A DNA stretch of 64,000 nt from Candidatus Latescibacterota bacterium (GCA_965198115.1 OZ240241.1:7328001-7392000), one strand, 5' to 3'; positions 15,433 through 59,615 are shown, counted from the first letter of the stretch. Notes: generated by a model from the sequence alone, not told the origin. Made by a program: numbers and translations.

Positions 15433-15474
15433 AACGAGTGCCGAATTCCGAGTAGGGAGTGACGAGTGATGAGG
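15433..15474. repeat. Degenerate 7-mer tandem repeat (6 units) in a gene junction
   Basis: AACGAGT GCCGAAT TCCGAGT AGGGAGT GACGAGT GATGAGG. Confidence 0.6.
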
Positions 15475-15477
15475 GGT

Positions 15478-17112
15478 CTATTTAACGATCGGCAAGACGA
15501 GGTACGATGGATTCTCCCGATCGTGGAAGATCGCTTGGTCGGCGGTGACGTAGTCCGCGTTTCGCTCGTTGTCACCGCCTGTGTTCAGGTTCCGGCTGAG
15601 GCGCGGGAAATTACTGCTGCTGACGGCGAGGGCGATGCAGTGCCCGGGCTGAAACTCGTTGCTGGTCGACCAGAGGTCGATTTCGAACCGGACCGGTTCG
15701 CCGGGTGTCAGTAGCTCGGTCCGGTCCATTCCGTCCCGGTAGCGGGCACGTACGACGCCGTCGGACAAGAGACGGGCGTTGCCATCCGGCGCGATGTCCA
15801 TCAGCTTCGCCGTAAAGTCGGTGTCGACGGCGGAAGACGATCCGAAAAGGACCAACTTCAGTGGGCCGGTAACTTCCAGAGGAGCGCTGAAAGGTTCACT
15901 TGCGTAGACGAGCACGTCGTCACGGTATAGGGTGATCTGCTGGTCTCTCGGGCCGCGTCGCATCGGGAGGACCCTGGCTGGTCCCGAATTGGCACCACCC
16001 CACGTGGGGACGGGGTTCGCCGGGTCGTAGGTGAAGTGGTCGGGCGGTTCATCCCCGGGCTCGTCCGTCGTCAGCGTTCCGCGTACCCACCCTCCGTGGA
16101 CGTTCCCCTCGCTGTGCAGGTAGAATTTCGTTTCTACAGCACGGTCGAGCGGCCACGACGTCTCGTCACGCCACTCGTTTCTGCCCATCACGAAGATCTG
16201 GACGCGAGGCGGAGTCTGGGCCGATTCGTTTTCCTTCACGTGGCGATCGAAGAAGGCAAGATCCGCGGCATGATGGTCTCGCCTGGAGCCGGGCCCGAAA
16301 TCGTAGTCGGGTATGATGTCGGGATCGCAACTGTGGTCCCAGGGTCCGATGACGAGGTGGGTATTCTGCTTCTGTTCCTCGGTTCCGTGCGTCATCGTGT
16401 GCGTGAAAAAGTCGATCGGCCCGGTCCCGCAGTGATCGTACCAGCCTGTGACCATCAGGTTGGGGGTTTTCAGGCTTTCAAACTGCTCTGGATCCACCTG
16501 GGTGAAGTAGTTCTGGTGCGGGGAGGTGAGGACATCGTGGTAGAGCTCGACCGGGCCACCGAGGTCGTCCAGGATGCTTGTCGCGGGGAGTTTGCCGAGG
16601 TGGGGGAGCCAGTCGGTCTCCTCGTAGGACCGCAGCTCGGGCCCGCTCTGCGCGTAGAAGTACCACATCGGGATTTGGTGAAGCATGAAGGACCCACCGA
16701 GTCGACTGAACATGCCGTAGGGCAGCACCTGAGGGCACATTGCACGATGCGCGGGATGGGCGAGGAAGGCCGTTGCCGACTGAACGCGCGCGAGGGCCGA
16801 GCCGCCAAACGTACCGATTCGACCGTTGCACCAGTCCTGCCCGACCATCCATTCCATCGTGTCGTAGCCATCTTCGGGGAAATCGTGGCGACCGGTCGGC
16901 CCGCCTTCCGACTTGTGACGTCCGCGCACGTTCTGCGCGAGGACGGCGTAACCCTCCTCGACGAAGGCCTCGCAACGATCGGTGACGCGATCCGTCCCAT
17001 ACATACATCGGACCATCAGGCTCGAGAACGGTCCATTGCCCTCAGGCAGGTAAACAAAGCTTTGCAAACGAATGCCGTCCCGCGTGGGGATCATAACTTC
17101 CTGAGGGCTCAT
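15478..17112 (-). CDS. CocE/NonD (peptidase S15-like) hydrolase
   Basis: RDGIRL, QNVRGRHKSEG, nucleophile elbow GGSALA, GWYD, GPWDH, SSSNFPR C-terminal domain. Confidence 0.92.
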   Translation of the reverse strand: MSPQEVMIPTRDGIRLQSFVYLPEGNGPFSSLMVRCMYGTDRVTDRCEAFVEEGYAVLAQNVRGRHKSEGGPTGRHDFPEDGYDTMEWMVGQDWCNGRIGTFGGSALARVQSATAFLAHPAHRAMCPQVLPYGMFSRLGGSFMLHQIPMWYFYAQSGPELRSYEETDWLPHLGKLPATSILDDLGGPVELYHDVLTSPHQNYFTQVDPEQFESLKTPNLMVTGWYDHCGTGPIDFFTHTMTHGTEEQKQNTHLVIGPWDHSCDPDIIPDYDFGPGSRRDHHAADLAFFDRHVKENESAQTPPRVQIFVMGRNEWRDETSWPLDRAVETKFYLHSEGNVHGGWVRGTLTTDEPGDEPPDHFTYDPANPVPTWGGANSGPARVLPMRRGPRDQQITLYRDDVLVYASEPFSAPLEVTGPLKLVLFGSSSAVDTDFTAKLMDIAPDGNARLLSDGVVRARYRDGMDRTELLTPGEPVRFEIDLWSTSNEFQPGHCIALAVSSSNFPRLSRNLNTGGDNERNADYVTADQAIFHDRENPSYLVLPIVK

Positions 17113-17145
17113 ACGGAATCAGTCCTTGCTTACAAGATTCCCGGC

Positions 17146-17239
17146 GTCAGTTCGAGCGCGAGTCGAGAACTCGCCCCTGGCCCTACTTGGAACGACTTCT
17201 CGGCGGAGTCTATCCCGAACGAAGTCAAGAGGCAGTGAT
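17146..17239. repeat. REP-like pair, second copy degenerate/composite
   Basis: GTCAGTTCGAGCGCGAGTCGAGAAC, then GACTTCTCGGCGGAGTCTATCCCGAAC, similar to 55172-55218. Confidence 0.7.
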
Positions 17240-17266
17240 GTTGCTATATGCCTGTTAGACAGAGCA

Positions 17267-18274: not shown

Positions 18275-18344
18275 CCATTTTCCTCACGAAGGAAAAGCGC
18301 CACTGAGGACACTGACTGCCAGCCGATTTGCGATCGACAAAGGA

Positions 18345-18367
18345 GTCCCCGTGCGGAGCACGGGGAC
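18345..18367. repeat. Hairpin repeat GTCCCCGTGC-NNN-GCACGGGGAC
   Basis: Copies at 18345, 19440, 38566 (degenerate) and 42760 (inverted), all intergenic. Confidence 0.8.
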
Positions 18368-18480
18368 GAGCGCGGCGCTTTGTAAAAGAATGAGTAATGC
18401 GCTTCGCTCGCCCCTGGGCTCTGCCGGGGCACTGTGTGCTGACGAATGGTTGATGTGGCTCCCTGGAACGACTCTACGAA

Positions 18481-19356: not shown

Positions 19357-19392
19357 AGAAGTCTCTTTTGATTGAGAACACTCACTCGCGCC

Positions 19393-19462
19393 GTCACACT
19401 GAGCGGAGTCGAAGTGCGGGTCATCACCATTCCTTTTTCGTCCCCGTGCTGAGCACGGGGAC
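19393..19462. repeat. REP-like element plus GTCCCCGTGC hairpin
   Basis: GTCACACTGAGCGGAGTCGAAGTG (19393-19416) and GTCCCCGTGCTGAGCACGGGGAC (19440-19462). Confidence 0.75.
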
Positions 19463-19518
19463 GAGCGACCTTCCTCGATCATAGTGGATGGTGTGGAGGA
19501 GCCCACCATCAGATGTGC

Positions 19519-20724: not shown

Positions 20725-20739
20725 GACAGACAGGAATCC

Positions 20740-21951: not shown

Positions 21952-23076
21952 TCACTCCGGGCGGAGCCAGCGTGCCCTTGGGAAACGTGCGTAAACATAT
22001 TGAGCTTTGTAGGTGTCGTCCTGAGCGTATGAGATGAAACCTCCCACCAGGTCACAAGCATACTGTTCGATCGCTTCGTCGACGAGGTCGACGCCCAGTC
22101 CGGGTCCTTCCGGGATGGTGATGTAGCTGTCGACGACCTCTGGTTGGGGCTCCATGACTTCATATCGGATCTGAACGTCTCCAGTCATGTGCTCCCAGAT
22201 GAGAAAGTTGGGAATCGCCGAACACAGGTGCAGCGAAGCGATCTCGCCCACGGGCCCAAGGGATCCGTCGTGGGGTGCGAACTGGATGTAGTGCGCCTCG
22301 GCCATGCCGGCCAGCTTCTTCAGTTGTGTGAGACCGCCAAAGCGACCCGCGTCGGGCTGGATGACATCGACGATTTCCCGTTCGATCAGTTCTCGTGCGC
22401 CGTAGATGTAGGCGAGACGTTCGCCAGCCGCGAGCGGAATGTTGATGGCGTCGGAGACACGGGCCATGGCCTCGACGTTCTCGGGGGCGACGGGTTCCTC
22501 GTAGAAGAAGACGCCGAACTCTTCGAGTCTCCTGCCCATCGAGATGGCATCGCGAGTCGTCATCCACGGCATGCCGTGCAGGTCGACCATGATGTCGATG
22601 TCGTCGCCCACTTCGTTGCGTATCGCGGTGATATCCCGGATGCAGTGTTCGATCCCTCCCATTTTGAGTCCGGTGTAACCCTCATCGACGACTTCGCGTG
22701 CCCGCTCAGCCGTTTCGGCGTGGGTGTAGGCACGGAGGCTTTCCCGCATTCGGCCACCGAGGAGCTGCCAAACGGGCATGCCGAAGGCCTTTCCCTTGAT
22801 GTCCCAGAGGGCCGTCTCGATAGCCGACATCGCGCCTGCCCCGACGATGCCGGACATCCCGTGGGTCATCAGGAACATCTTGCTCCAACAGCGCTCGATA
22901 TTGAAGGGGTCTTCGCCGATGAGGACGTTGCCCTTCTGATGAATCTCCGTCTGGATGCTTGGCCAGGCGGAGGCCTCGCCTACTCCGTAAATGCCTTCAT
23001 CGGTGAACACTCTGCAGAACAGGAAGTTTCGTCCGTTCTGACCGACGGAGTAGGTCTTGACTTCGGTGATCTTCAT
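21952..23076 (-). CDS. MR/MLE acid-sugar dehydratase, paralog 2 of 3
   Basis: Same motifs as paralog 1; start MKITEVK at 23076. Confidence 0.9.
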   Translation of the reverse strand: MKITEVKTYSVGQNGRNFLFCRVFTDEGIYGVGEASAWPSIQTEIHQKGNVLIGEDPFNIERCWSKMFLMTHGMSGIVGAGAMSAIETALWDIKGKAFGMPVWQLLGGRMRESLRAYTHAETAERAREVVDEGYTGLKMGGIEHCIRDITAIRNEVGDDIDIMVDLHGMPWMTTRDAISMGRRLEEFGVFFYEEPVAPENVEAMARVSDAINIPLAAGERLAYIYGARELIEREIVDVIQPDAGRFGGLTQLKKLAGMAEAHYIQFAPHDGSLGPVGEIASLHLCSAIPNFLIWEHMTGDVQIRYEVMEPQPEVVDSYITIPEGPGLGVDLVDEAIEQYACDLVGGFISYAQDDTYKAQYVYARFPRARWLRPE

Positions 23077-24334: not shown

Positions 24335-24450
24335 GACGTACCCGATCGCCTTTTGAAGGGAACCACAGAAAACACGGAAGGGTGGGTGCTACGGGAATCC
24401 AGGCCCTATTCGGGAAAATGAATGGGATGTCGGGAAAAGTAGAGCAGTCT

Positions 24451-26643: not shown

Positions 26644-27654
26644 CTACTCACTATCTACGACCTGCATTGCGGCGTGGATGTAGCCGTAGCTGTAGCCGAA
26701 GCCGACTTCGCGCGGGGCGGGACCCGAGAGTACGGGGACGTGGTCGGGCATGATCATGTAGGGATAGCCCACTTCCTTATAGACACGCAGCGCATCGATC
26801 ATGTCGATGTCGCCCTCGTCGGGGAAAACCTCGGAGAAGTCATTGAGGCCGCCCTTGATGTTCCGAAAGTGGACATTGAAGATCTTCTTCCGCTCGCCGA
26901 ACCAGCGGATGACGTCGAAGATCTCTTCACCGGGGTTTTCGAGCGCTTCTGACATGCAACCCTGGCAGAAGTTCAGGCCGTTGTAGTCGCTGTCGTACAT
27001 CTGAACGAACTTCTTGAAGCCCTCGGGCATGCCAAGTGGGCGCGCAACCTCTCGGTAGGTGTTGTTCATGCCGATGCCAGGGTCGGATGGATGGCAACAC
27101 ATCTGGATCTTGTGCTCTTCGGCTACGGGAATCACTTTCTGCAGCCAGTAGTCGATGCGTTCCCACATCGTGTCCAGATCCGCTGCGCCACCTTCGAATT
27201 CTCCCGACGAGTGATCCATCTCGTCGAACTTGAACGTGGAGAGGCTGGCGCCGCCGCGACCCGTCGTACGTTCGGTTCTCATGTGGCCGAGAACGGTAAT
27301 GTTGTACTGGAGCCCCCGTAGACCGGCTTCGTTGGCCATCTTGATGACTTCGTGCACGCGATCGATCGCACGTTCACGTTCATCGCTCGCCCCGAGGAAG
27401 ATGACACCGGCGTAGTTGTCGTTCGCACGTTCATCGAGGTTGCCGGATATGGCGGGGCGCCCTCGCAGCGGCAGATGTGTCAGTTCCATGTTGATACCGA
27501 ACTTCGCGCACTGTTCACGCATGCGTACGAATGTATCCGTCGTCCATTCGGTCCACGGTTCCGCCGGGGTGATGTCGACATTGTTGACGCCGAGCTGCGA
27601 CAGGACCTGCAGGTCCTCGTCCGTTCTGAAACCACCTTGCGTACCGATGTACAT
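26644..27654 (-). CDS. uxuA: Mannonate dehydratase (UxuA)-like, paralog 1 of 4
   Basis: HPSDP, GLNFCQG, HFRNI, FPDEGD, PDHVP; start MYIGTQ after SD AGGAGG. Confidence 0.85.
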   Translation of the reverse strand: MYIGTQGGFRTDEDLQVLSQLGVNNVDITPAEPWTEWTTDTFVRMREQCAKFGINMELTHLPLRGRPAISGNLDERANDNYAGVIFLGASDERERAIDRVHEVIKMANEAGLRGLQYNITVLGHMRTERTTGRGGASLSTFKFDEMDHSSGEFEGGAADLDTMWERIDYWLQKVIPVAEEHKIQMCCHPSDPGIGMNNTYREVARPLGMPEGFKKFVQMYDSDYNGLNFCQGCMSEALENPGEEIFDVIRWFGERKKIFNVHFRNIKGGLNDFSEVFPDEGDIDMIDALRVYKEVGYPYMIMPDHVPVLSGPAPREVGFGYSYGYIHAAMQVVDSE

Positions 27655-27786
27655 TATTCCTCCTGGTAACGATGAATCAGAGACTTCCAACGCAGAGAAC
27701 GCGGAGATTTCCGGTCATAGACCGGAACCAGATAGAGACGCATAACCACGCCTGCTCGCCTCTTCGCCCGCTCCCTTTACAGGCTA

Positions 27787-28794
27787 CTAGTTATCGACCA
27801 CCTGCATCGCGGCGTGGATGTAGCCGTAGGCGTAGGCCATTCCGACCTCTCGGGGGGCGGGGCCAGTCATCCTCGGTACGTGATCGGGCATGACCATGTA
27901 TTCGTAGCCAACGTCCTTGTAGACCTGGAGCGCCTTCAGCATGTCGATATCGCCTTCGTCAGGGAAGACTTCGACAAAGTCATTGAGTCCACCCTTGATG
28001 TTCCGGAAGTGGACGTTGAAGATCTTCTTCCGTTCGCCGAAATAGCGGATGACGTCGAAGATCTCCTCGCCTGGATTTTCGAGCGCCTCGGACATGCAGC
28101 CCTGGCAGAAATTGAGTCCGTTGTAGGAACTGTCGTAGAGTTCTATGAATCTCTTGAATCCTTCGGGCATCCCCATAGGCCGAGCGACCCCGCGATAAGT
28201 GTTGTCCATCCCGATGCCGGGATCGGACGGGTGACAGCCCATCTGCACTTTGTACTCCTCGGCGACGGGGATCACTTTCTGCAGCCAGTAGTCGATCCGC
28301 TCGAGCATCGTGTCCGTGTCCGCAGCGCCTTGTTCGAACTCTCCCTTCGACTGATCGAGCTTGTCGAACACGAACGTCGACAGCCCGGCGCCGCCGCGGC
28401 CCGTCGTGGATTCGGTCCGCATGTGACCGAGGATGGTGATGTTATACATGAGGCCGCGCAATCCGGCCTCCCCGGCCATTCGGATGGTGTCGCAAACGCG
28501 ATCGATGGCGCGCTCACGTTCGTCGCTTGGACCAAGGAAGATCGCGCCTCCCTCGTTCTCGTTCTTGGGGTTGTCAAGGTTTCCGGGGATCGCGACTCGC
28601 CCCGACAGCGGCAGGTGCATCATTTCCATGCTGATCCCGTAGCTGTCGCACTTCTCGCGCATGGAGACCAGCAACTCCGTCGACCAGTCGGCCCACGGCT
28701 CAGTCGGACTCTGGGCGATGTGATTCACACCCAGTTGTGATAGGACTTTGAGCTCTTCGTCTTCGTGGGGGACACCCTGTGTACCGATGTACAT
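27787..28794 (-). CDS. uxuA: UxuA-like, paralog 2 of 4
   Basis: Same motifs as paralog 1. Confidence 0.85.
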   Translation of the reverse strand: MYIGTQGVPHEDEELKVLSQLGVNHIAQSPTEPWADWSTELLVSMREKCDSYGISMEMMHLPLSGRVAIPGNLDNPKNENEGGAIFLGPSDERERAIDRVCDTIRMAGEAGLRGLMYNITILGHMRTESTTGRGGAGLSTFVFDKLDQSKGEFEQGAADTDTMLERIDYWLQKVIPVAEEYKVQMGCHPSDPGIGMDNTYRGVARPMGMPEGFKRFIELYDSSYNGLNFCQGCMSEALENPGEEIFDVIRYFGERKKIFNVHFRNIKGGLNDFVEVFPDEGDIDMLKALQVYKDVGYEYMVMPDHVPRMTGPAPREVGMAYAYGYIHAAMQVVDN

Positions 28795-28860
28795 GTCTAT
28801 CGCGCTCCTTTAAGCTAAGGATCGCCGTAATGCGAGTATCATTTGGTTCAGCGATTGAGT

Positions 28861-29051
28861 TGTCAGAGTCCCCTCCTGGGGAGGGGACCAGTGTTCAGGG
28901 TTGCGCTCTGCTCGAATCGTTTTCGCTATCCTGCTCCGAAGCTCCTCCAGTCACGAGAGGGGATCCCTCGGCACATTCAATGTTTCGGTGATTGGGCGCC
29001 TCTCCATTCCTAAAGGTGCCTCGGGATGACAGCCGACTGCGTCGGCTGTCA
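28861..29051. repeat. Composite palindromic element downstream of UxuA paralog 3
   Basis: TGACAGCCGAC-tgc-GTCGGCTGTCA over the stop codon; GGGATCCCTCGGCAC...GTGCCTCGGGATGACA; GTCCCCTCCTGGGGAGGGGAC. Homologous to 30140-30389. Confidence 0.75.
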
Positions 29052-30062
29052 CTTCTCTCCCACAGCCTGCAGCATGGCGTGGATATACCCGAACGTGTAG
29101 GCGAACGCGACTTTGCCGGGTTCGGGGCCAGAGATCCCGGGAACGTGGTCGGGCATGACCATGTGGGGATAGTCCACATCCTTGAGTGCCTGCATGACCT
29201 TGAGCATGTCGACATGGCCTTCATCCGGAAAGACTTCGACGAAATTGCGAAGCCCGCCTCTGATGTTTCGGTAATGGATGTTGAAGATCTTTTTCCGCTC
29301 ACCGAAGTAGCGAATGACGTCGTAGACATTCTCGCCCGGGTTTTCGAGCGCTTCCGACATGCAGCCGACGCAGAAGTTGATGCCGTTGTAGGGGCTGTCA
29401 TAGAGGTCAACCATCTTCTTGAATCCTTCGACCATGCCCATCACGCGTTCGACGCCGCGATATGTCGTCCCTACGCCTATGCCGGGATCCGACGGGTGAC
29501 ACGCCATCTGGACTTTATGCTCCTCCGCAACGGGGATGACGCGCTGAAGCCAGTGGTCGATGCGCTCCCACATCTCATCCTCGTCGGCAGCTCCGTCCTC
29601 GAACTCGGTGTCCTTAGCTCCCAGTGGATCGCCGGCGCGGCCTTTTTCGACAAACTCGTCATAGTTGAACGTGGATAGGCGTGCCCCGCCGCGCCCGGTC
29701 GTGCTCGTCGTCCGCATGTGGCCTAGGGGCGTGGCGTTGTAGTTGAGGCCCCTCAGACCCGCCTCGCTGGCCATCCTGATGATGTCGCAGACGAGATCGA
29801 TCTGGCGTTCCCGCTCGTCGCTCGGTCCGTGGAAGACCTTTCCGGTGACGGGATCGTTCATCGAGTTGCCCGAGCTGATGACGTGGGTCATCTCCATGTT
29901 GATTCCGAATTTGCCGCACCGTTCGCGGTGGCTCGTCAGGAGATCAGTCGTCCACTCGTTCTGGGGTTCCTTCGGCGTCGTGTCGATGTTGTTGACGCCC
30001 AGCTGCGAGAGCTGAATGAGGTCGTGATCTTCTGGAAAACTGCCTTGTGTTCCGATATACAT
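29049..30062 (-). CDS. uxuA: UxuA-like, paralog 3 of 4
   Basis: HPSDP, GINFCVG, HYRNI, PDHVP. Confidence 0.85.
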   Translation of the reverse strand: MYIGTQGSFPEDHDLIQLSQLGVNNIDTTPKEPQNEWTTDLLTSHRERCGKFGINMEMTHVISSGNSMNDPVTGKVFHGPSDERERQIDLVCDIIRMASEAGLRGLNYNATPLGHMRTTSTTGRGGARLSTFNYDEFVEKGRAGDPLGAKDTEFEDGAADEDEMWERIDHWLQRVIPVAEEHKVQMACHPSDPGIGVGTTYRGVERVMGMVEGFKKMVDLYDSPYNGINFCVGCMSEALENPGENVYDVIRYFGERKKIFNIHYRNIRGGLRNFVEVFPDEGHVDMLKVMQALKDVDYPHMVMPDHVPGISGPEPGKVAFAYTFGYIHAMLQAVGEK

Positions 30063-30139
30063 CTATTCCTCCTGCTTATGAGAGCATATGCAACTACGAA
30101 ATGGACACTAAGTGATCACGAAGCCGCCTGGGAGTAGAT

Positions 30140-30389
30140 TGTCATCCCGAAGCAGATTTAGACGAAGTACGAGCGTCGGTTACGTACTAACTGAGTCTCC
30201 TGAGGGATCCCTCATCACGGGCAGCAGTCCTGCTTACACCTCCTGCTTCTGGGCCCCTCCAGCCACGAAGAGGGATTCCTCGGCACGTCAGTGTTTCCAC
30301 ATTAGGTATCGCAGCCCGCTTCCGATCGTGCCTCGGAATGACAGCCGCCGAGGCAGTGTGGGAATCCTTTATCACCTCGTCGGCTGTCA
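30140..30389. repeat. Composite palindromic element downstream of UxuA paralog 4
   Basis: TGTCATCCCGA...GGGATCCC; GGGATTCCTCGGCAC...GTGCCTCGGAATGACAGCCG...CGGCTGTCA. Confidence 0.75.
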
Positions 30390-32234: not shown

Positions 32235-32324
32235 CGGTTCTCCTCGGGGATTGGTGTGAACGGAAAGCGTGCAGCGGCCCCCATGCTGCCCCTCGCCCGG
32301 TCAAATGGCAAGGGAAAAGAAGAC

Positions 32325-32375
32325 CACGAAATACACGAAACACACGAAAATCTGGGCCACACGGAATACACGGAA
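32325..32375. repeat. 9-mer tandem repeats
   Basis: CACGAAATA CACGAAACA CACGAAAAT and CACACGGAA TACACGGAA. Confidence 0.8.
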
Positions 32376-33398: not shown

Positions 33399-33400
33399 GT

Positions 33401-36388: not shown

Positions 36389-36763
36389 GTGGACCTCCGG
36401 AAGTGGTATCCCGCGATGCAGTGCTGGGCGATTGATGGGCCTCAAGATGGGGTCATGCCTGTGGGCCGGCAAGAATTGACGAAACCGAGAAACAACTCAC
36501 CACGGAGGACACGGAGAAGGCGGAGGGTTCACAGGCATCGCCAGGGGCCGGGATTCGAGATCAGACGAGAAATGGGTATCGTGGCTCGCAGAGTGGGGCG
36601 ATGGAACGTATCGAGACAACATTCTCGTCAGGCGGCAGATTTTATTCCTTCAGATGGTTTACCCCCCGGAAATCTGGTGCTTTCCTGACAAGCTGATGTA
36701 TCATGCGACTGAATCTGCCATCCGGACCGATGACCGCCGATCCAGATCGGCGTGGAGGAAGGC

Positions 36764-37756
36764 ATGAAAGCAGCTGTCTACCACGGCCCACGTGATATCC
36801 GGGTAGAGGACGTAAGCCAGCCCGAGATCGAGGAAAACGAAGTGCTGCTGCGGGTGAAAGCTTGCGGCATATGCGGGTCAGACCTGCACACGTATCGGCT
36901 CGGGATGTTCGAGGAGGCCCTGGGACGGCCGATCGAGAACGGCCGCATCATGGGTCACGAGATGAGCGGCGAGGTCGTGGAGGTCGGGGGCGTCGTCGAT
37001 GGATTCCGGGTCGAGGATCGCGTGACGTCCGTCGGCCGCGGCGGCTTTGCCGAGTTCACGTCGGTCGAGATACGGGAGAGAAGTCCCCACCTGCTGCCTG
37101 AATCGATCAGTTTCGAAGAAGGGGCGATGATGGAGCCCTTCGCGACGTCCATTCACGGGGTCGGTCTCGCCCAGCCCCAGCAGGGCGAGACCGTCGTCGT
37201 CCTTGGGGTGGGGATCATTGGACTGGGATGCATTCAGGCGATCCGCGCGACGACGGACTGCCGCATCATCGCGGTGGATACGTCTGAAAAGCGACTGGAT
37301 ATGGCTCATCAACTCGGTGCAACAGATACCGTCAACCTGAAGGAGACCGATCCTCTCGAGGCGGTGATCGAACTGACGGGCGGGGCCAAACCTGTGGAGA
37401 ATTTTGGCGTTCGTGGTGGGAACGCGGATGTGGTGATCGACTGTGCAGGTGCCAAAGCCTCTCCGAATCAGGGATTGCTGATGCTCAAGCAGCTCTACGG
37501 CCGCATGGTGTTCGTTGCGCTGTTCGAAGGCCAGCCGGAATTGGATTTCAACCAGGTCGTACGCAAGCACGTGACAATTCGGGGTTCGTGGGGATGGACG
37601 GGCGATGATTACCACGAGGCGATCGCCCTCGTGGAGAGCGGCCGCGTCGATCGTAAACCTCTGATCTCGCATACTTTTTCGCTGGACGAGGCGCCCGAGG
37701 CGTTCGCTATGCAGGATAAACCGGATGCGGCCATCAAGGTTCTGCTCAAACCGTGA
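36764..37756 (+). CDS. Zn-dependent (MDR) alcohol/sugar dehydrogenase
   Basis: CGICGSDLH, GHE, GVGIIG; lacks the 4-Cys structural-zinc loop. Confidence 0.92.
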   Translation: MKAAVYHGPRDIRVEDVSQPEIEENEVLLRVKACGICGSDLHTYRLGMFEEALGRPIENGRIMGHEMSGEVVEVGGVVDGFRVEDRVTSVGRGGFAEFTSVEIRERSPHLLPESISFEEGAMMEPFATSIHGVGLAQPQQGETVVVLGVGIIGLGCIQAIRATTDCRIIAVDTSEKRLDMAHQLGATDTVNLKETDPLEAVIELTGGAKPVENFGVRGGNADVVIDCAGAKASPNQGLLMLKQLYGRMVFVALFEGQPELDFNQVVRKHVTIRGSWGWTGDDYHEAIALVESGRVDRKPLISHTFSLDEAPEAFAMQDKPDAAIKVLLKP

Positions 37757-38554
37757 CCGATGGCGACCCAGGGCTGTGCGTCGACAGCATCACGAAGCTC
37801 GGTCCCGAGTATCGCGGTCGAGTGCTTGTTGCCGGGTCTCATGGCGGCAGATACTGTGGATATCTCGCCGCCCTCGGCGGTCTGAGAGGGGTCATCCTCA
37901 ACGACGCGGGGGTGGGCAAGGACGATGCGGGGATCGGGGCGCTCGACTATCTGCAGCCCCTGGGCGTCGCGGCCGCGACGGTGGCGCATACCTCTTCCCG
38001 GATCGGGGATGGCGCGGACATGCTCGAACGTGGAAGGCTGTCCTACTGCAACGATGTGGCGAAGGCTCTCGGTTGTGCGGAAGGTCAGTCCTGTCGGGAG
38101 GCTGCGGCGGCCATGCGGAGAGGCGAGGCTTACGAAGGTGAACCACCGGCCCACGAGGAAGGGCGTGAAATTCTGCGAGAGACGCCAGTGAGAGTCGTCG
38201 GGTGCGACTCGGCCTCGCTGGTCGTGGACGACGATGCGGATACGGTCATCGTAACAGGATCGCACGGAGGCTCGCTCGCGGGCAGACCCGGTTACGGACT
38301 CGCAGTCAAGGCAACGTGGTGGGATTTTCAACGATGCGGGCGTGGGGGTCGACAACGCGGGCATCCGGCGCTTGCAGATTCTGGATGATTCGGGCGCGCC
38401 CGCCGCGACGGTGGACGCGATGACCGCCCGCATCGGTGATGCGCGGTCGGCCTGGGAGACGGGCATTCTTACCCACGTGAATGCGCTGGCGCTAGAGCGT
38501 GGCGTCGAGATCGGGATAACGGTGCCCGAATTCGCCGATCGGCTTTCTGCGTGA
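37753..38554 (+). CDS. Hypothetical protein with an internally duplicated domain, frameshift at ~38313
   Basis: Two copies of DS..L...GSHGG...NDAGVG.D.AG...L...G..AATV....(S/A)RIGD. An extra A in GCAACGT splits the second copy. Confidence 0.75.
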
Positions 38555-38687
38555 CGTGGCAATGCGTCCACGTGCGGAGCACGAGGACGAGCGTGGCGTT
38601 TGGAATTCTAATAAAAGCAATGCGAATCGCTCATCCCTGTGCTGTGCACAGGGATGCATAGAGTCGACCGATGCAAACGGAGAATCG

Positions 38688-40418
38688 ATGTCTTCACGCG
38701 TGCAGATGAACGGCGGGCGGGCGCTCGCAGAAATGCTCAAACTTCACGATCCGGCACCGATGTTCGGGATGGCCGGTTTCCAGTTGCTGCCTTTTTACGA
38801 TGCTGTCAGGGAGTTGGGGTTGAGCCACACCCTGATTAACGATGAACGATCGGGTGTGTTCATATCCGATGCGTGGGCGCGAGTGACGGGGCGACCCGGC
38901 ATCTGTGATGCAACGCTCGGGCCCGGGGCAACGAATCTCGTGACGGGGCTGGTCGAGTCGTTGAACGCGGGGGTGCCCCTGATCGTTCTCGTGGGCAACA
39001 GCAATCGCGACCACTCGTGGAAGAACATGACGCAGGAGGCGCGTCAGGCAGACATCCTTGCCCCAGCGGTGAAGGAACAGATTCGGATCGAACAGGGATT
39101 GAGGATTCCTGAGCTCGTGCGTCGAGCCTATTCCGTGGCTACATCGGGCCGTCCGGGCCCGGTCGTGCTCGACATTCCCGAGGACATCGCGCACGGGGAA
39201 TTCGACTTTCCGAAGGACGATCTGTACGCCGATCCGGAGACGCTTCGCATCCCGTCGAAACGCGCCCGTCCCGGTCGCGAGTCCGTGGCAAAGGCGGCCG
39301 AGCAGCTGCGCCAATCGGATCGGCCCATCGTTCTGGCGGGAGGTAGCATCCATCTTTTGGGCGCTTACGATGAGCTGTTAGGCTTCGCGGAGGCGTTCAG
39401 CATTCCGGTTGCTCAGACTTTGAGTGGAAAAGGGGCGATCCCCTGTACGCATCCCCTGAGCGTGGGTCTGTTCGGACGGTGGACGCGCATTGCGAATGAC
39501 CTGATCGACACCTCGGACTGTATCATGTCTGTCGGGTGCAAGATGGGTGAGATCGCGACGAAGCGGTTCGCGCTCATGCCGCAGGGCGTCCCGTTCATTC
39601 ATCTCGACATCGTGGCCGAGGAGATTGGACGAACGACGGCGACCGATGTGGCGCTGTGGGGAGATGCCGCCGAAGGTCTTCGGGATCTTCACGATCTGAT
39701 GAGCGATGACGCGACGGTCTTGAGAGCGCGCCGGAAAGACTACGTGGGCGAAATCGAGGAGCGGCTACAAGCGTGGCGGGTTGAAGCAGAGCCTCGATAC
39801 GCTTCGACCGAGCGACCGGTCAACATGGCACGCATGGTCCGAGAGCTCCAGGGAGTGATGCCCGGCAACGGCATCCTGGTGGTCGACGGCGGATTCGCCG
39901 CTCACTGGACCGGATTGTTGTACGATTCGACGCGCTCGGGTCGAAGTTACATCGCCAATCGGGGGTTCGCGTCGATCGGTTACGGTCTGCCGGGTACGAT
40001 GGGTGCGCAACTTGCGGCCCCAGATTCGCCAGTCATCGGGATTACGGGAGATGCTGGCTTCAACATGGTGCTCGGCGAGCTGGAGACCGCGAGAAGGCTC
40101 GGCCTTGGGTTTACACTCGCGATCGTGAACAACGCGGCATCGGGTTACGTTAAAGCCCTTCAGCACAATATGTATGGGGCCCGTTATCAGTCGAGCGACC
40201 TGAGTGAGGTCAATTACGCGAACGTGGCCTGTGAACTCGGATGCCACGGTATCCGCGTCGAAGATCCGGATGAGCTTGAAGGTGCGTTTGCAGAGGGTAT
40301 CGCCAATCGGGAGTCGCCAACCGTCGTCGATGTGGTCGTCACTCGCGACCCGTCCAAAATGCTGCCCGGTGTGGACAGTCGGACGGCACCGGTTAAGAAA
40401 GGCGATAGACCCGCTTGA
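38688..40418 (+). CDS. ThDP-binding enzyme, acetolactate synthase large-subunit-like
   Basis: NDERSG, TLGPGATN, GRPGPVVLDIP, GDAGFNM...NN; probable start MSSRVQ. Confidence 0.92.
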   Translation: MSSRVQMNGGRALAEMLKLHDPAPMFGMAGFQLLPFYDAVRELGLSHTLINDERSGVFISDAWARVTGRPGICDATLGPGATNLVTGLVESLNAGVPLIVLVGNSNRDHSWKNMTQEARQADILAPAVKEQIRIEQGLRIPELVRRAYSVATSGRPGPVVLDIPEDIAHGEFDFPKDDLYADPETLRIPSKRARPGRESVAKAAEQLRQSDRPIVLAGGSIHLLGAYDELLGFAEAFSIPVAQTLSGKGAIPCTHPLSVGLFGRWTRIANDLIDTSDCIMSVGCKMGEIATKRFALMPQGVPFIHLDIVAEEIGRTTATDVALWGDAAEGLRDLHDLMSDDATVLRARRKDYVGEIEERLQAWRVEAEPRYASTERPVNMARMVRELQGVMPGNGILVVDGGFAAHWTGLLYDSTRSGRSYIANRGFASIGYGLPGTMGAQLAAPDSPVIGITGDAGFNMVLGELETARRLGLGFTLAIVNNAASGYVKALQHNMYGARYQSSDLSEVNYANVACELGCHGIRVEDPDELEGAFAEGIANRESPTVVDVVVTRDPSKMLPGVDSRTAPVKKGDRPA

Positions 40419-40465
40419 GGCAGGAAGAGCTGGGGGTTGAGGAGAACGGCACACCAGGAGAAGAG

Positions 40466-41431
40466 ATGGCACCGACACGAGATAAGCAACTCGAGATGTT
40501 GCGATCGATGCAGGTAATACGGCGTTTCGAAGAACGCGCTTCTGATGACTATATCGCCGGTGAGATCTACGGCGTCGTTCATTGCTACATCGGTGAAGAA
40601 GCCGTCGCGGTGGGGGTCTGCTCGGCGCTGAACCGGGAAGATCAGATCATCAGTACGCATCGTGGGCACGGCCATTGTTTGGCCAAGGGCGCAGACCTGA
40701 AACGCATGATGGCGGAGCTCTACGGCAGGGCATCGGGCTATTGCAAAGGCAAGGGTGGCTCTATGCACATCGCCGACTTCAGCATCGGGATGCTGGGGGC
40801 GAACGGTATCGTGGCCGGTGGGATTCCGATCGTGACGGGTGCAGGACTGGCCGCCCAGCTCGAAGGCAAGGGACGCGTCGCCGTGTCTTCCTTCGGGGAT
40901 GGCGCTTCGAACGCTGGACCCTTCCACGAGTCGATCAACATCGCCGCCGCGTGGAAACTTCCGATGCTCTACGTTTGTGAGAACAACCTCTACGCCGTCA
41001 ACACAGCGGCCGCCGATTCACTGGCGCATCAGGACGTTGCCGCAAGGGCGGACGGTTACGGAATCCCAGGGGTCATCGTGGACGGAAACGATGTTCTCGC
41101 AGTTCACCAAGCCGCTACTGAAGCAGTCAGTCGCGCTCGTGCCGGAGAAGGGCCCACCTTGATCGAGTGCAAGACCTACCGCCAGCGAGGACACACGGAG
41201 AGACCCGGCCAAGCCGAGCGGCGCCCGCCCGAAGAGATCGAGGCCTGGAAGAAGCGCGATCCGATTGATCGCCTGGTCAAGGGTATGATGGATCAGGGAG
41301 ACCTGAGCGAGGAAGATTGGCAGAAGATGGATGAGGAGATTCTCGCGGAGATCGAAGCATCCGTTCGATATGCGGAAGACAGCCCGTTCCCCGAGCCCGA
41401 TGCGGCGCTGGAGGACGTGGTCGCGAATTAG
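40466..41431 (+). CDS. 2-oxoacid/acetoin dehydrogenase E1 alpha subunit
   Basis: STHRGHGH, GKGGSMH, GDGA...CENN, TYRQRGH. Confidence 0.93.
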   Translation: MAPTRDKQLEMLRSMQVIRRFEERASDDYIAGEIYGVVHCYIGEEAVAVGVCSALNREDQIISTHRGHGHCLAKGADLKRMMAELYGRASGYCKGKGGSMHIADFSIGMLGANGIVAGGIPIVTGAGLAAQLEGKGRVAVSSFGDGASNAGPFHESINIAAAWKLPMLYVCENNLYAVNTAAADSLAHQDVAARADGYGIPGVIVDGNDVLAVHQAATEAVSRARAGEGPTLIECKTYRQRGHTERPGQAERRPPEEIEAWKKRDPIDRLVKGMMDQGDLSEEDWQKMDEEILAEIEASVRYAEDSPFPEPDAALEDVVAN

Positions 41432-41444
41432 AACCAAAGACAGC

Positions 41445-41575
41445 CACGGAGAACACGGAGGGCCGGCAGGTCAAGTTCCAGGCCTATTCGGGGGGATGGA
41501 ATCCGAGAACATTTCGGCTCAGGCCTTGCAAGCCCTGAAAGGGCGGCAGATTTGGCCCGAGGCGTCAGCCCCCGG
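41445..41575. repeat. 9-mer tandem repeat and GCCCTGAAAGGGC-type REP between E1 alpha and E1 beta
   Basis: CACGGAGAA CACGGAGGG at 41445; GCCCTGAAAGGGC at ~41532. Confidence 0.6.
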
Positions 41576-41691
41576 TAATTGGCAGACCACGAGGGCCCGA
41601 GCCGCTATTAATAGTGGCGATCACGCAGTAACGAAATCCATCGGCGCCTGTAACGAGATTTCAGTCGTCGCAGATTCAGCGAGGTAGCCTG

Positions 41692-42650
41692 ATGCGAACC
41701 ATTTCGTATGCAGACGCAGGAGCAGAAGCGCTCGTGGAAGAAATGCGACGTGATCCGACCACGTTTCATCTCGCGACAGACGCGCCACCGGATCTTGTCG
41801 AGGAGTTCGGGTCACAACGGGTCCGCGGCACCCCCATTGCCGAAGGCGCCCTGACGGGTATCGCCATCGGTGCAGCCGGGTCGGGGTTCCGACCGATCGT
41901 AAACTGGAGCATGGTGACGTTCTCATTCGTTGCGATGGACCAGATCGTGAACCAGGCTGCCAAGATCCACTACATGTTCGGAGGGCAGGCCACTTTCCCC
42001 ATCACCTTCCGGACGTCCGTGGGTGGAGGTAGGCGTGTGGCCGCCCAACACTCACAGAGCCCCTATTCAATGTTTATGAACCTCGCCGGATTGAAGATGA
42101 TTCTACCTTCGCGCCTTATGACATGAAGGGGTTGCTCAAGACGGTCATTCGTGATGACAACCCCATCATTTCGTTCGAGTCGAACAGGCTGAGTGCGATC
42201 GAAGGGGAGGTGCCGGATGACGATTACACGATTCCACTCGGGGTGGCCGATACGAAGAGAGAGGGAACGGATGTGACGATCGTGGCCCTTGCGTGGCTCG
42301 TGCACGAAGCGCTGGCAGTGGCCGAAGATCTGGAGAAGGAAGGGGTCTCGGTCGAGGTGGTCGATCCCCGAACACTCGTCCCGATGGACTACGACGCGAT
42401 TCGGGCTTCCGTTCAGAAGACGGGCAGGCTGGTGATTGCTGATGAGGCCGGACCGATCGCGGGAGCTTCAGCCGAGATCGCGGCGATCGTGACAGAGGAT
42501 CCGGAGACCTTTGCGAAGCTGAAGGCGCCGGTCAAACGTGTTTGCGCACTGCACGTGCCGATCCCCTACAGTCCGGGACTCGAAGATCACGTTTTTCCCG
42601 ATCGGGATAACATTCTGGAAGGTGTCCGGGAGGTCTTGTCGGCTGGGTGA
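41692..42650 (+). CDS. E1 beta subunit, frameshift at ~42110
   Basis: TPIAEG, MDQIVNQAAK, AQHSQS, then YDMKGLLK...EVVDPRTLVPMD...KTGRLV. TCGCGCCT lacks one G for the reading S-A-P. Confidence 0.9.
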
Positions 42651-44097: not shown

Positions 44098-44185
44098 GAC
44101 GAACCCAGAAGAAGACCACCCCTCACATCCGTTCGGGGCAGGCTACACACACGAAATACACGAACGAAACCGGGGAACTTTCTCA

Positions 44186-49485: not shown

Positions 49486-49506
49486 CTGAACACTGAACAC
49501 TGAACA
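49486..49506. repeat. (CTGAACA)3 7-mer tandem repeat
   Basis: Reverse-orientation copies TGTTCAG/TGTTCGG at 55034-55054, 57213-57233 and 59507-59556. Confidence 0.8.
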
Positions 49507-49568
49507 CTTGCCGCCTGCAAGATGCACAACGAATACCGAGAAGCCAACCAAACGGGGCATCCTCCCGT

Positions 49569-51500: not shown

Positions 51501-51568
51501 AGAAGAGGCGCCACTGAGGTCACTGAAAGCACAGAGAGGGGCAGGCGTGGGGCACGAGGGATTCTCTG

Positions 51569-53474: not shown

Positions 53475-53484
53475 GAGTCCCTCT

Positions 53485-55026: not shown

Positions 55027-55033
55027 AAGAGAG

Positions 55034-55218
55034 TGTTCAGTGTTCGGTGTTCAGGAACACCGGGCGCCAGGTAGACATTGTAGATGACATTGCAGGGTCA
55101 CTTCGAGCACCTCGACTACGCTCGGCACAGGCTCCGTCGAGAAGTCCCTCTTCGCCCCTCGTAGTGGGCGTGTTCTCGACGGAGTCTATCCTGAGCCTGC
55201 CGAAGGGCTCGAACTGAC
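55034..55218. repeat. 7-mer tandem repeat plus an inverted pair of nested REP elements
   Basis: TGTTCAG TGTTCGG TGTTCAG; GTCACTTCGAGCAC[CTCGACTACGCTCGGCACAGGCTCC]GTCGAGAAGTC; GTTCTCGAC[GGAGTCTATCCTGAGCCTGCCGAAGG]GCTCGAACTGAC. Confidence 0.8.
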
Positions 55219-55248
55219 GCCGCGGAGGCGGGTGATCGGTGGTAAAGG

Positions 55249-56097: not shown

Positions 56098-56110
56098 GTC
56101 TTGTCCTCCC

Positions 56111-57178: not shown

Positions 57179-57249
57179 GGGGGCTCCTGCGGCTCTTCGG
57201 CCGCAGTTCGGGTGTTCAGCGTTCGGTGTTCAGGAAAAGCAAAACAAAC

Positions 57250-58044
57250 CTAAGCGACGGTGACTGCTTCTGCTCTTTCGCGGAGTTCGTCGATGCCGTC
57301 GAGCATTTGCCTGATTTCCGGGCGATCGCAGGCGAGAATGCCTTCGTGCGGGTGGAACGCATCTTTCGACCACCGCAACAACGAAACGAAATGCGCATCG
57401 GAGGTTGGGCGTGCGATGAACTTGAGGGCGATGTAGCGACGCGGTCCAGTCTTCCCGTAGACGCCGTGGAACAGACTCTGATTGAAGAACAGGACGTCTC
57501 CTGGTTCGCTCTCGAAAGCGAAGCAGGGCACATCAGGTCCCCTCATGCCGAAGAAGTCGTCGATGTGCTTGGTATGGTTCTCCTGAAACGGTCGAAGATC
57601 TTCGTGCAACGGGAGGCGATGCGATCCTGGAATGACGCGGATGGCACCTTCCTCCTTCGTGGTCGGGTCCAGGTAGATCATGATCTTGATCCGCCTATAG
57701 TCCAGCTCCTTCGTGCCGGGCCGGTCGGCGTGCCAGTGGTGTATCGGTGTCCCCTGCAGGAATCCGCGGTTGCCCTCTGAACCGGACCAGATGAAGTCCT
57801 CACCCAGGAGTCCGGAGATGACTCTGTGGATCCGCTCGTCGTCGACGAGTCTGAGGAGTGTCTCGTTTCGTTCGACGAATGGCGCGGTGTGCATTCCTTC
57901 GTCGACAGCAGGTGGTTTCCCTAAGTCCTCTGTCCAGACCTGTTCCGAGGCGTCCTCGATGGCCTCGATTTCGTCAATCGAGAAGAGCTGGCGGCAACAC
58001 AGGAAGCCGAAGGTTTCGAAGTGTGCGCGATCGTTATCGTTCAT
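57250..58044 (-). CDS. PhyH family Fe/2OG dioxygenase
   Basis: FETFGFL, WHAD, VIPGSH, PGDVLFF..LFHG, RR. Confidence 0.9.
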   Translation of the reverse strand: MNDNDRAHFETFGFLCCRQLFSIDEIEAIEDASEQVWTEDLGKPPAVDEGMHTAPFVERNETLLRLVDDERIHRVISGLLGEDFIWSGSEGNRGFLQGTPIHHWHADRPGTKELDYRRIKIMIYLDPTTKEEGAIRVIPGSHRLPLHEDLRPFQENHTKHIDDFFGMRGPDVPCFAFESEPGDVLFFNQSLFHGVYGKTGPRRYIALKFIARPTSDAHFVSLLRWSKDAFHPHEGILACDRPEIRQMLDGIDELRERAEAVTVA

Positions 58045-58065
58045 GGCTTGTCTCTTGAGTGAATC

Positions 58066-58377
58066 CACAGATCACACAGAATGCACCACATCGTCACACT
58101 GAGCCCTTACTCCGCTCAGGTTAGACTCCGTCGAAGTGTTCTTCATCAAGGAGAGGGAATCCAACACGGTGTCACCCCGGCAGTGTGTTGAGCCGGGGCC
58201 CATTTTCGCTTCTGCCGCTCATTGTGTTGAGGCGGCGAGAATGGATCCCCCTTCGACAAGCTCCCTTCGACGGGCTCAGGACAGGCAGGACAGGCGGCCA
58301 AGAAGCGTACCGGGATGACATGGCCCTTCGCTCAGGTTCTCCTATTCCACCTCGTTACCAGGCTCTGCCTGGTAACG
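58066..58377. repeat. Intergenic mosaic: 9-mers, nested REPs and a CGTTACCAGGC palindrome
   Basis: CACAGATCA CACAGAATG; GTCACACTGAGC[...]GTCGAAGTG (58093-58138); CTTCGACAAGCTC[CCTTCGACGGGCTCAGGACAGGC]AGGACAGGC; CGTTACCAGGC-tct-GCCTGGTAACG (58353-58377). Confidence 0.8.
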
Positions 58378-59463
58378 CTACTGATACTTCGCCTCGTCCT
58401 CGGGGCTGATCTCGAGATCCTCGCCGACCTTCACCTCGAGCTTGTCTGCCCATTCCTGAATCCGTCCGACGGTCTTGGGCCATACCTCGACGCCCATTTC
58501 GAGTCGCTCTCGTCTGGAGTTCTGTTCGTAATCTCCGGGGACGATTACTTCGTCGAAACCGGCAGCGGGAGGCGTCTTCTTGATGCCGTCGAGGAAGCTG
58601 CGAACGCCCTTCTGATAATCTTCTAGCGGCAGGAAAGCCTTGACGTCGATGACCTGCATGAAGGCACCGCCCATTGTGCCCTGTTCCGCGTCGAACTGGC
58701 CGGACAGACCGCCCAAAAGGCAGGTGAACAGGGAGAGGGCGTAGCCTTTGTGGAGACCGAAACCGAGCATGTTTCCACCCTCGGTGAGGTCGCTCACTTT
58801 GACACTCGGGCTTCCGTTCTTGTCGACGATGCATCCTTCGGGCAGGTCGGCATCTTTGCTTTCGGCGAACGCGGTTTTCCCGCCTGCGATCATGGTCGTT
58901 GCATAGTCCAGGACAAACGGTGTGTCATCGCCCGTTGGTACGCCCACTGCGATCGGGTTCGTGCCGAGCTTGCCTTCGGCGCCACCGTAGGGAAGGGTCC
59001 CGCCGCCCCGAATGCCGACGCTCCGCTTGCCGCCTCCACCTCCAGTACTGATCCAGCCGATGCAACCCGCGTGGGCAGCGATTTCGGCCCACTGCCCGAG
59101 CCGACCGATGTGACCGTTATTCTTGAGGCTCACGCGGCAGACCTCGGACTGCTTGGCTTTCTTTATGGCCAGTTCGACGGCCGTCCTCGCCGTGTAGAGT
59201 CCTGATCCCTTGTTTCCGTTGAGGACGACGGTGGTGTCGGTCTCCCGCTCCACTGTCGGTTCCGCACCGGCGACGACCGCGCCCGATTCGATCGCATCGA
59301 GATAGCTAGGAATGCGCAGGATGCCGTGCGAGTCGTGTCCGGCGACGTTTGCGCCGACGAGCGTTGCGGCGATCACCTCCGCGATGTGGGTGGGCGTGCC
59401 GGCTGCCTCGAACAGCTGGCGCGTCATTGTGTGCAGGTAACTTGCTTGGTACCGCTGGGCCAT
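58378..59463 (-). CDS. Ldh_2 family oxidoreductase (malate/L-lactate/ureidoglycolate dehydrogenase-like)
   Basis: GHDSHG, GHIGRLG, GTNPIA, LDYATT, HKGYAL. Confidence 0.92.
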   Translation of the reverse strand: MAQRYQASYLHTMTRQLFEAAGTPTHIAEVIAATLVGANVAGHDSHGILRIPSYLDAIESGAVVAGAEPTVERETDTTVVLNGNKGSGLYTARTAVELAIKKAKQSEVCRVSLKNNGHIGRLGQWAEIAAHAGCIGWISTGGGGGKRSVGIRGGGTLPYGGAEGKLGTNPIAVGVPTGDDTPFVLDYATTMIAGGKTAFAESKDADLPEGCIVDKNGSPSVKVSDLTEGGNMLGFGLHKGYALSLFTCLLGGLSGQFDAEQGTMGGAFMQVIDVKAFLPLEDYQKGVRSFLDGIKKTPPAAGFDEVIVPGDYEQNSRRERLEMGVEVWPKTVGRIQEWADKLEVKVGEDLEISPEDEAKYQ

Positions 59464-59615
59464 GGATTGCTCCTCGGTTGCTTGCGCTGGCTTCCGCCAG
59501 GATGGGTGTTCAGTGTTCGGTCCCCTACGTCTATGCTTCGGGGGACAGGTGTTTAGGAAAACAAACTTCCCGGGTGATTAAGCATAGCGAAAGACCTCTT
59601 CACAATGATTGAGAT

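What the first reader, a model, noticed from the sequence alone, without database searches (positions are those of the whole stretch)
15433..59556. Gene junctions carry polarised 7-/9-mer micro-arrays: possible cassette-boundary system behind the paralog array
Seen: degenerate 9-mer doublets or triplets (CACGGAGAA/CACGAAATA type) at 18301, 24364, 27689, 32325, 36501, 44150, 51512 and 58066. Each lies ~10-115 bp upstream of a minus-strand start codon, so it reads G/T-rich on the coding strand. The copy at 41445 follows a plus-strand stop and reads C/A-rich on the coding strand. 7-mer arrays occupy the junctions at 15433, 49486, 55034, 57213 and 59507 and are less strictly oriented. I saw none inside CDSs. 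From general knowledge, to be verified: such repeats often flank GxxExxY and four-helix-bundle genes in variable loci; neither gene type is in this window. Inference: the repeats may be boundaries or scars of a trans-acting system that inserts, shuffles or duplicates single genes, which would explain a regulator-free, co-oriented string of enzyme paralogs.
Basis: partly seen in the sequence, partly recalled or inferred. Interest (0 to 1): 0.7.

Follow-up and report, generated by a model that had tools for sequence, protein, structure and literature searches.

The report
Replication-polarised orphan arms of mini-cassettes
The short repeat arrays between these genes are real and match the end-arms that bracket two families of small, likely selfish genes elsewhere in the genome, but they do not mark gains, losses or duplications of the enzyme genes; unexpectedly, most lone arms in this lineage point along the direction of DNA replication.

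Summary
All 14 arrays are in the sequence. The genome holds about 600 more, far above chance for most classes. They match the inverted arms around this genome's GxxExxY and four-helix-bundle genes. Orthologous slots in congener G001 show full, truncated, empty, swapped and one-armed states. This scan found that arm-and-gene design before on other DNA, and the 9-mer is in print as paired Geobacter sites.

The paralog-cassette idea fails. G001 has 29 of the 36 genes in the same order, yet 10 of 12 comparable junctions lack the array. None of 93 clean gene indels has arrays at both ends. Duplication ends avoid arrays.

The polarity has two parts. The outer edge of an arm faces the adjacent gene, stop or start equally (116:116). 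New here: lone arms follow replication. 246 of 289 lone 8-10-mers read inward on the leading strand, whatever the gene orientation, and they follow old inversions; other polarised repeat ends show 49%. G001 shares the bias; four genomes of a sister genus do not. Likely history: cassettes lose their gene, then the origin-distal arm. Novelty: new variant of a known kind. Interest 0.5.

The parts
15433..15470 (+). 7-mer array, about six degenerate units filling most of a 69-bp junction; lone arm; class not shown enriched genome-wide
18300..18315 (+). lone 9-mer arm, outer edge 25 bp from the start at 18274; absent at the same junction in G001
24363..24378 (+). lone 9-mer arm, 28 bp from the start at 24334; absent in G001, where the junction is about 20 bp
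24402..24414 (+). second conserved box 23 bp inside the arm; 53 such arm-plus-box copies in the genome, with non-clonal spacers
27690..27705 (+). lone 9-mer arm between two uxuA-like paralogs; absent in G001, where both paralogs are adjacent
32324..32374 (+). two stacked 9-mer arms in the same orientation; absent in G001
36500..36515 (+). lone 9-mer arm, 111 bp from the start at 36388; the only array at a gene-content breakpoint
36764..42650 (+). plus-strand block (six scored genes) missing from the syntenic G001 region; array at its left junction only, none scored at its right junction
41444..41459 (+). lone 9-mer arm 12 bp after the stop at 41431, internal to the plus-strand block
41481..41492 (+). 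second conserved box 21 bp inside the arm
44149..44164 (+). lone 9-mer arm, retained in the same orientation in G001 with unrelated inner sequence
49486..49508 (-). 7-mer array in the opposite orientation; absent in G001
51511..51526 (+). lone 9-mer arm next to the start at 51500; in G001 the two genes abut with no array
55034..55053 (+). 7-mer array 7 bp from the start at 55026; a degenerate counterpart is visible in G001
57206..57233 (+). 7-mer array; absent in G001
58065..58080 (+). lone 9-mer arm, 20 bp from the start at 58044; absent in G001
59507..59519 (+). 7-mer array between two Ldh_2 paralogs; absent in G001; lies inside, not at the edge of, a 4-kb duplication
21952..23076 (-). youngest tandem paralog (87% to its neighbour), absent in G001; no array at either junction
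58362..62406 (.). 4,045-bp segment with a 99.75% copy at G000:1774631-1778675; ends not on arrays; the other copy lies near transposase-like genes

Best explanation
The arrays are lone end-arms of the inverted-repeat cassettes that carry GxxExxY and four-helix-bundle genes in this genome, likely left behind after a cassette lost first its gene and then one arm. Shown: the same arrays bracket those genes as inverted pairs; orthologous slots occur full, truncated, empty, refilled or one-armed; an arm's outer edge faces the adjacent host gene, stop or start alike; about 85% of lone 8-10-mer arms read inward on the leading strand. Inferred: gene-less two-armed copies fold into hairpins, and in this lineage a replication-directional event, likely processing of a hairpin on the lagging-strand template, removes the origin-distal arm. 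Inferred: the surviving arm is kept by selection or gene conversion, probably as a protein-binding site, while the sequence inside it turns over. Inferred and untested: the PD-(D/E)XK protein acts in trans on the arms to spread the cassettes. The enzyme paralog string is older than most of its arrays' present states and independent of them.
For: Arms flank GxxExxY genes in G000 and many of the 27 relatives' loci printed. 7-mer periodicity is the best period on at least one side of 20 of 24 four-helix loci of relatives. Facing pairs within 300 bp: 71; back-to-back pairs: 1. Slot series: G001:C22 has a near-complete GxxExxY frame where G000 keeps both arms and the 3' third of the gene (82% over 40 aa). 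G001:C24 has a four-helix gene where G000:7185320-7185469 has an empty 7-mer pair. G001:C59 has a four-helix gene where G000 has a similar left arm and leader around a GIY-YIG gene and an IS. G001:C48 has a four-helix pseudogene where G000:340783 has a lone arm remnant. Same-class 9-mer pairs fold: 15 of 19 have z below -2. The two arms of one element resemble each other more than arms of different elements (p=2e-4). 314 of 408 8-10-mer arms have no scored partner, and partners are gone rather than decayed (24 vs 13 of 255 at 11/16 matches). Replication polarity: 364/507 junctions by global skew; 9-mer 157/182 by local skew, 75-86% in all four gene arrangements, genes themselves 52%; de novo control ends 3194/6547; G001 33/41 and 22/31. 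Retention: arms match at 12/15 or better in 18 of 133 orthologous junctions, inner spacers in 0 of 127, across about 1.2 substitutions per fourfold site.
Against: Only 2 intact GxxExxY genes and 2 four-helix genes (one IS-interrupted) stand against about 600 arms. Inner sequences are not clonal: nearest-neighbour identity 0.62 vs 0.60 shuffled, and 10 of 283 9-mer arms have a 45/60 match elsewhere, mostly other repeats, so no recent copying is seen. Lone arms are no shorter than paired ones (21.9 vs 22.4 bp, p=0.39; conditional on detection). In pairs the origin-proximal arm is longer in only 16 vs 7 of 35 (p=0.09). The polarity is missing in G011, G014, G018 and G023: 25 vs 23 by 3-kb skew, 56/115 by dnaA position. 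One 7-mer class is weak (33/57). The slippage geometry described in PMC1851657 would remove nearly the whole hairpin, not spare the origin-proximal arm. In the C24 and C48 slots only the upstream neighbour is shared directly. No joints at arrays among those listed for the contigs (79 joints not shown).
Confidence: 0.58

Rival explanations
1. Lone arms are the working unit: polar protein-binding sites, derived from cassette ends but inserted singly or selected in leading-strand orientation for a chromosome-level role (fork, repair or nucleoid organisation).
For: 85% leading-strand orientation independent of gene direction. Lone arms are as long as paired arms and persist while spacers randomise. 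A second box sits 20-28 bp inside the arm in 53 copies. Density falls with distance from dnaA (rho -0.65).
Against: No polarity in the four sister-genus genomes. 116 of 138 array-bearing conserved junctions have no scored array in G001. Arrays keep the old orientation inside inverted segments (4.8-5.2 and 7.6-8.0 Mb). Several unrelated motif classes share the bias, which suggests a shared process more than one reader protein.
Confidence: 0.2
2. The arrays are regulatory sites for the adjacent gene (translational or transcriptional), as proposed for Geobacter paired sites and Beggiatoaceae heptamers.
For: They lie a median 40 bp from starts and 16 bp from stops. Both papers propose regulation. 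Some arms are retained between species.
Against: Stops and starts are used equally. Orientation follows the replichore, not transcription. Neighbours have no common function: TypA, a RluA-family enzyme, transaldolase, malate synthase and many catabolic enzymes among 39 sampled. Most are absent from the same junction in G001.
Confidence: 0.1
3. One reading: the arrays are boundaries of a system that inserts, shuffles or duplicates the enzyme genes and built the paralog string.
For: The window is array-rich (13 scored, rank 9 of 131 bins). The array at 36500 sits at one edge of a block missing in G001. Arm-bounded slots do swap small genes.
Against: 0 of 93 clean indels are bracketed. Fewer arrays at breakpoints than at conserved junctions. 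7 of 240 duplication ends lie near arrays. 2 of 7 tandem-paralog junctions in the window carry one, and the youngest duplicate has none. Gene order is shared with G001.
Confidence: 0.05
4. The strand bias is a mutational or detection by-product of GC skew acting on an unpolarised set of relics.
For: The bias tracks local GC skew closely; my patterns were tuned on this genome.
Against: The 9-mer inward reading has more C than G (1343 vs 1040), the opposite of leading-strand skew. G-rich classes show the same geometric bias, and other repeat ends show none.
Confidence: 0.07

Closest known systems
[quoted passage not shown]
   Same: Three tandem 9-mers whose consensus is the reverse complement of the finding's 9-mer; paired on opposite strands, facing as here, with variable and unique spacers.
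   Different: There 21 pairs and one unpaired site; here 314 of 408 are lone. The passages read propose IHF/HU-type binding and mention no GxxExxY link or replication polarity. Supplements S5, S7 and S9 were not read.
Beggiatoaceae intergenic heptamer repeats (MacGregor 2015, PMC4679880; abstract, outline and passages read)
   Same: Lone 2-6-copy heptamer arrays, mostly intergenic, one orientation before starts and the reverse after stops; absent from the same junction in close relatives.
   Different: Different heptamer; read as translational control; the terms four helix, four-helix and IVP do not occur in the main text. Here stops and starts are equal and the replichore sets the side.
Arm-bracketed GxxExxY and four-helix-bundle cassettes
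   Same: Same arms, same genes, filled, empty and scarred slots.
   Different: Here lone arms dominate and are replication-polarised; a word search of the scan for that polarity returned nothing.
REPIN / RAYT (Bertels and Rainey 2011, PMC3116915; passages read)
   Same: Many gene-less inverted doublets and singlets against very few cognate genes; doublets fold; spacers are less conserved than ends.
   Different: REPINs are 61% doublets with decayed singlets. Here 77% are singlets, not shorter; arms are tandem direct repeats, not palindromes; the cognate genes are PD-(D/E)XK or four-helix, not HUH.
Replication-oriented motifs such as KOPS, Chi and AIMS (recalled, no call)
   Same: Strong leading-strand orientation.
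   Different: These arrays are mostly intergenic, thin out away from the origin, and are not polarised in a sister genus.

Membership tests
Arm-bracketed GxxExxY / four-helix-bundle cassette | Same arrays flank the cognate genes as inverted pairs | tested here: met
Arm-bracketed GxxExxY / four-helix-bundle cassette | Orthologous slots occur filled, truncated, empty or one-armed | tested here: met
Arm-bracketed GxxExxY / four-helix-bundle cassette | Cognate gene present at the window sites | tested here: not met
   no genome match of either family lies in the window; window copies are gene-less
Arm-bracketed GxxExxY / four-helix-bundle cassette | Protein binds or cuts the arms | not testable with these tools
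   PF13366 is listed as PD-(D/E)XK of unknown function; no solved relative by sequence
Geobacter class-2 paired sites | Tandem 9-mer of that consensus with unique spacers | tested here: met
Geobacter class-2 paired sites | Occurs almost always as a pair | tested here: not met
   59 of 408 have a same-class partner, 314 none
REPIN / RAYT | Doublets outnumber singlets | tested here: not met
REPIN / RAYT | Doublets form hairpins | tested here: met
   15 of 19 with z below -2
REPIN / RAYT | Cognate gene is an HUH tyrosine transposase flanked by the repeat | tested here: inconclusive
   the genes seen inside these arms are GxxExxY or four-helix; 75 Y1 matches exist but their flanks were not inspected
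MITE | Near-identical dispersed copies | tested here: not met
MITE | Target-site duplication | not tested
   G001 is too diverged to define insertion points
Cassette system for enzyme genes (integron-like) | Gene gain or loss bracketed by the repeats | tested here: not met
   0 of 93
Cassette system for enzyme genes (integron-like) | Duplication ends fall on the repeats | tested here: not met
   7 of 240 vs 3.9% control
KOPS/AIMS-type motif (features recalled) | Leading-strand orientation | tested here: met
   in G000 and G001; not in four g4 genomes
KOPS/AIMS-type motif (features recalled) | Density rises toward the terminus | tested here: not met
   falls with distance from dnaA, rho -0.65

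The most novel reading that the evidence does not exclude
Hundreds of lone arms are a domesticated, replication-oriented layer of protein-binding sites. They are laid down or trimmed by a fork-coupled reaction of the GxxExxY nuclease, and each marks the origin-proximal edge of an intergenic slot whose contents (small selfish genes, REP-like hairpins, IS) are swapped while the arm is kept.
Probability: 0.2. Interest if true: 0.8.

Novelty: new variant of a known kind. Interest (0 to 1): 0.5.

Why it matters
It ties long-unexplained intergenic 7-10-mer arrays, published as putative regulator sites, to two orphan protein families, and it removes the idea that they build paralog strings. The replication polarity is a new, directly testable constraint on how these elements arise or decay. 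It also explains why lone arrays look start-codon-oriented where genes lie on the lagging strand, which could mislead regulatory readings in other genomes.

Tried and rejected
1. Paralog-boundary model: rejected. 2. Start-codon polarity as the rule: rejected. 3. Clonal MITE family: rejected. 4. The arm-plus-second-box pattern across genome contigs gave 13 loci; the 8 printed show no tandem arm and look like chance, so that extended end appears lineage-specific. 5. Replication polarity in the sister genus g4: not found (58 of the 60 loci fetched were scored; origins inferred from 3-kb skew or dnaA only; at most 150 candidates were scored per genome). The 9-mer model found only weak hits in 14 relatives. 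6. No RNA holder listed. X3 is the same organism at low depth and gave no strain comparison. 7. No solved relative of the GxxExxY protein by sequence. 8. A junction-by-junction table of which repeat classes face each other, beyond the eight scored classes, was not obtained; how often a lone arm faces an unscored class stays open. 9. Paper searches: GxxExxY gave 3 papers, 2 listed, one mention each, seen as listings only; searches found nothing linking these arrays to the two gene families. The library lacks most subscription journals. 10. G001:C1's four-helix gene had no orthologous slot in G000.
Full report
Setting. The window is G000:C1:7328001-7392000 of a single-contig 8.43-Mb genome. It holds a mostly minus-strand string of catabolic enzymes: enolase-superfamily, UxuA, CocE/PepX, PhyH and Ldh_2 families. 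Genes were called with a self-trained script, and 6,513 calls were kept. Array classes are hand-tuned patterns, so counts are approximate.

Observation. All 14 arrays are present. The main classes are far above shuffled intergenic DNA; three 7-mer patterns, including that of 15433, are not clearly so. Genome-wide there are 283 intergenic 9-mer, 85 8-mer and 40 10-mer arrays and 287 matches to five 7-mer patterns. 579 of 5,152 junctions carry one, and the window ranks 9 of 131 bins.

What the arrays are. G000 has two intact GxxExxY genes and four further partial matches and two four-helix-bundle genes. The GxxExxY genes sit between inverted 9-, 8- or 10-mer arrays, as do many of the 27 relatives' loci printed. 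Relatives' four-helix genes are mostly flanked by 7-mer arrays. Gene-less arms face each other in 71 cases within 300 bp and stand back to back once. This gives the first polarity: the outer edge of a 9-mer arm is nearer to a gene than the inner edge in 232 of 283 cases, 116 at stops and 116 at starts.

Slot series. G001 is a congener at about 82% amino-acid identity and 1.2 substitutions per fourfold site; I examined 1.73 of its 5.6 Mb, plus six small loci. All three of its GxxExxY genes lie at slots that also hold GxxExxY sequence in G000: 79% identical, 52% identical, and near-complete versus 5'-truncated with both arms kept. Of its six four-helix genes, one is shared (76%). One faces a different, IS-interrupted four-helix gene with another arm class (61%). 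One faces an empty 7-mer pair, one a GIY-YIG gene and an IS inside similar arms, and one a lone arm remnant. One has no orthologous slot. The cargo that comes and goes is therefore the small gene itself.

Test of the paralog model. Between 15433 and 59556, 29 of 36 scored genes are in the same order in G001. Of 12 comparable array junctions, one keeps the array (44149), one keeps a degenerate form (55034) and ten have none. Over 720 conserved junctions, arrays are in G000 only at 116, in G001 only at 18, and in both at 22. Breakpoints are not enriched, with or without IS borders, and 0 of 93 clean gene indels are bracketed. Recent duplications do not end on arrays. A random sample of 39 neighbours includes TypA, a RluA-family synthase, transaldolase, malate synthase G and CutA. 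The model is not supported.

Replication polarity. GC skew turns near 6.20 Mb and 1.10 Mb, and dnaA lies at 6.016 Mb. With one vote per junction, 364 of 507 one-orientation junctions read inward on the leading strand. Against local skew the figure is 374 of 464: 9-mer 157/182, 8-mer 44/55, 10-mer 22/29, three 7-mer classes 55/65, 30/35 and 33/41, and a fourth only 33/57. The bias holds for leading, lagging, convergent and divergent gene pairs (80, 81, 75, 86%), while genes are 52%. It follows two segments of reversed skew. De novo polarised ends such as IS ends and hairpin halves give 3194/6547. G001 gives 33/41 and 22/31, partly through shared ancestry. The retained arm is thus the origin-proximal one. 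In the window the leading strand is +, so all nine 9-mers read on +, and because most genes are on the minus strand they meet start codons. In four complete genomes of genus g4, lone 10-mer arms also dominate (48 of 58) but show no bias.

Unexplained features. Inner sequences are unique to each copy, as in Geobacter. A second box sits 20-28 bp inside the arm in 53 copies. Arms outlast their spacers (18/133 vs 0/127), which implies selection, conversion or repeated use of the same slot. Density falls away from the origin.

Mechanism. Most likely, cassettes entered short intergenic gaps, lost their gene, and left hairpin-forming pairs. In this lineage one arm was then removed in a fork-directional way. 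Hairpins on the lagging-strand template and direction-biased deletion are documented (PMC7999016 and PMC1851657, passages), and G000 has an sbcD gene. The published slippage geometry does not predict which arm survives here, so this step is inferred and weak. A role for the GxxExxY protein is untested; its family is PD-(D/E)XK of unknown function (PMC3424549, passage).

Comparison. The 9-mer is in print as paired Geobacter sites (PMC2700814), and polarised lone heptamers are in print for Beggiatoaceae (PMC4679880). One passage there notes eight Microcystis sets between stop codons sharing a chromosomal orientation, which may be a hint of the same polarity. The system works like REPIN/RAYT (PMC3116915) but fails two of its tests. 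The arm-and-gene design was noted before by this scan on other DNA; searches of the scan for lone arms and for replichore orientation returned nothing. I did not find the link or the polarity in print.

Verdict. Real feature; a new variant of a known kind; first reading partly supported; interest 0.5.

Noticed in passing
window 3853-4838 (ORF 3931-5070 +): ISL3-family transposase segment with well over 200 near-identical copies across the genome; the genome also has 75 Y1 transposase matches, pointing to a recent IS expansion.
   Followed up: no
window 58362-62406 and G000:C1:1774631-1778675: 99.75% identical 4-kb block whose flanks stay homologous at lower identity on one side, suggesting recent conversion or IS-linked duplication within an older paralogous block.
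   Followed up: partly
most window junctions, e.g. 17113-17266, 30063-30386, 55057-55248, 58081-58377: Dense mosaic of other palindromic REP-like elements; the set at a given junction differs almost entirely between G000 and G001. Dozens of polarised k-mer clusters genome-wide.
   Followed up: partly
window 41432-42650: Transketolase-type beta subunit split into two ORFs (41692-42126 and 42123-42650), apparently frameshifted, after a 260-bp junction with the 41444 arm.
   Followed up: no
window 26644-31400 and G001:C18:39340-45120: Four uxuA-like paralogs here, five in G001; the junction where the extra copy sits carries no scored array.
   Followed up: partly
G000:C1:4800000-5200000 and 7600000-8000000: Segments with GC skew opposite to their replichore, likely recent inversions; lone arms follow the old skew.
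   Followed up: partly
L002:1426-1857: The longest GxxExxY ORF starts at the left arm, so the repeat would be translated as the N-terminus if that start is used.
   Followed up: no
G000:C1:213787-216297: GIY-YIG gene with its own palindromic flanks, next to an IS, occupying a slot that holds a four-helix gene in G001.
   Followed up: partly
G000 genome-wide: A 9-bp perfect doublet occurs 105 times, unrelated to these arrays and possibly part of a multicopy IS; not examined.
   Followed up: no
L049 (G029) and L287 (G011): Arms expanded into long perfect tandem runs of 9-10-bp units, one directly upstream of a GxxExxY gene.
   Followed up: no
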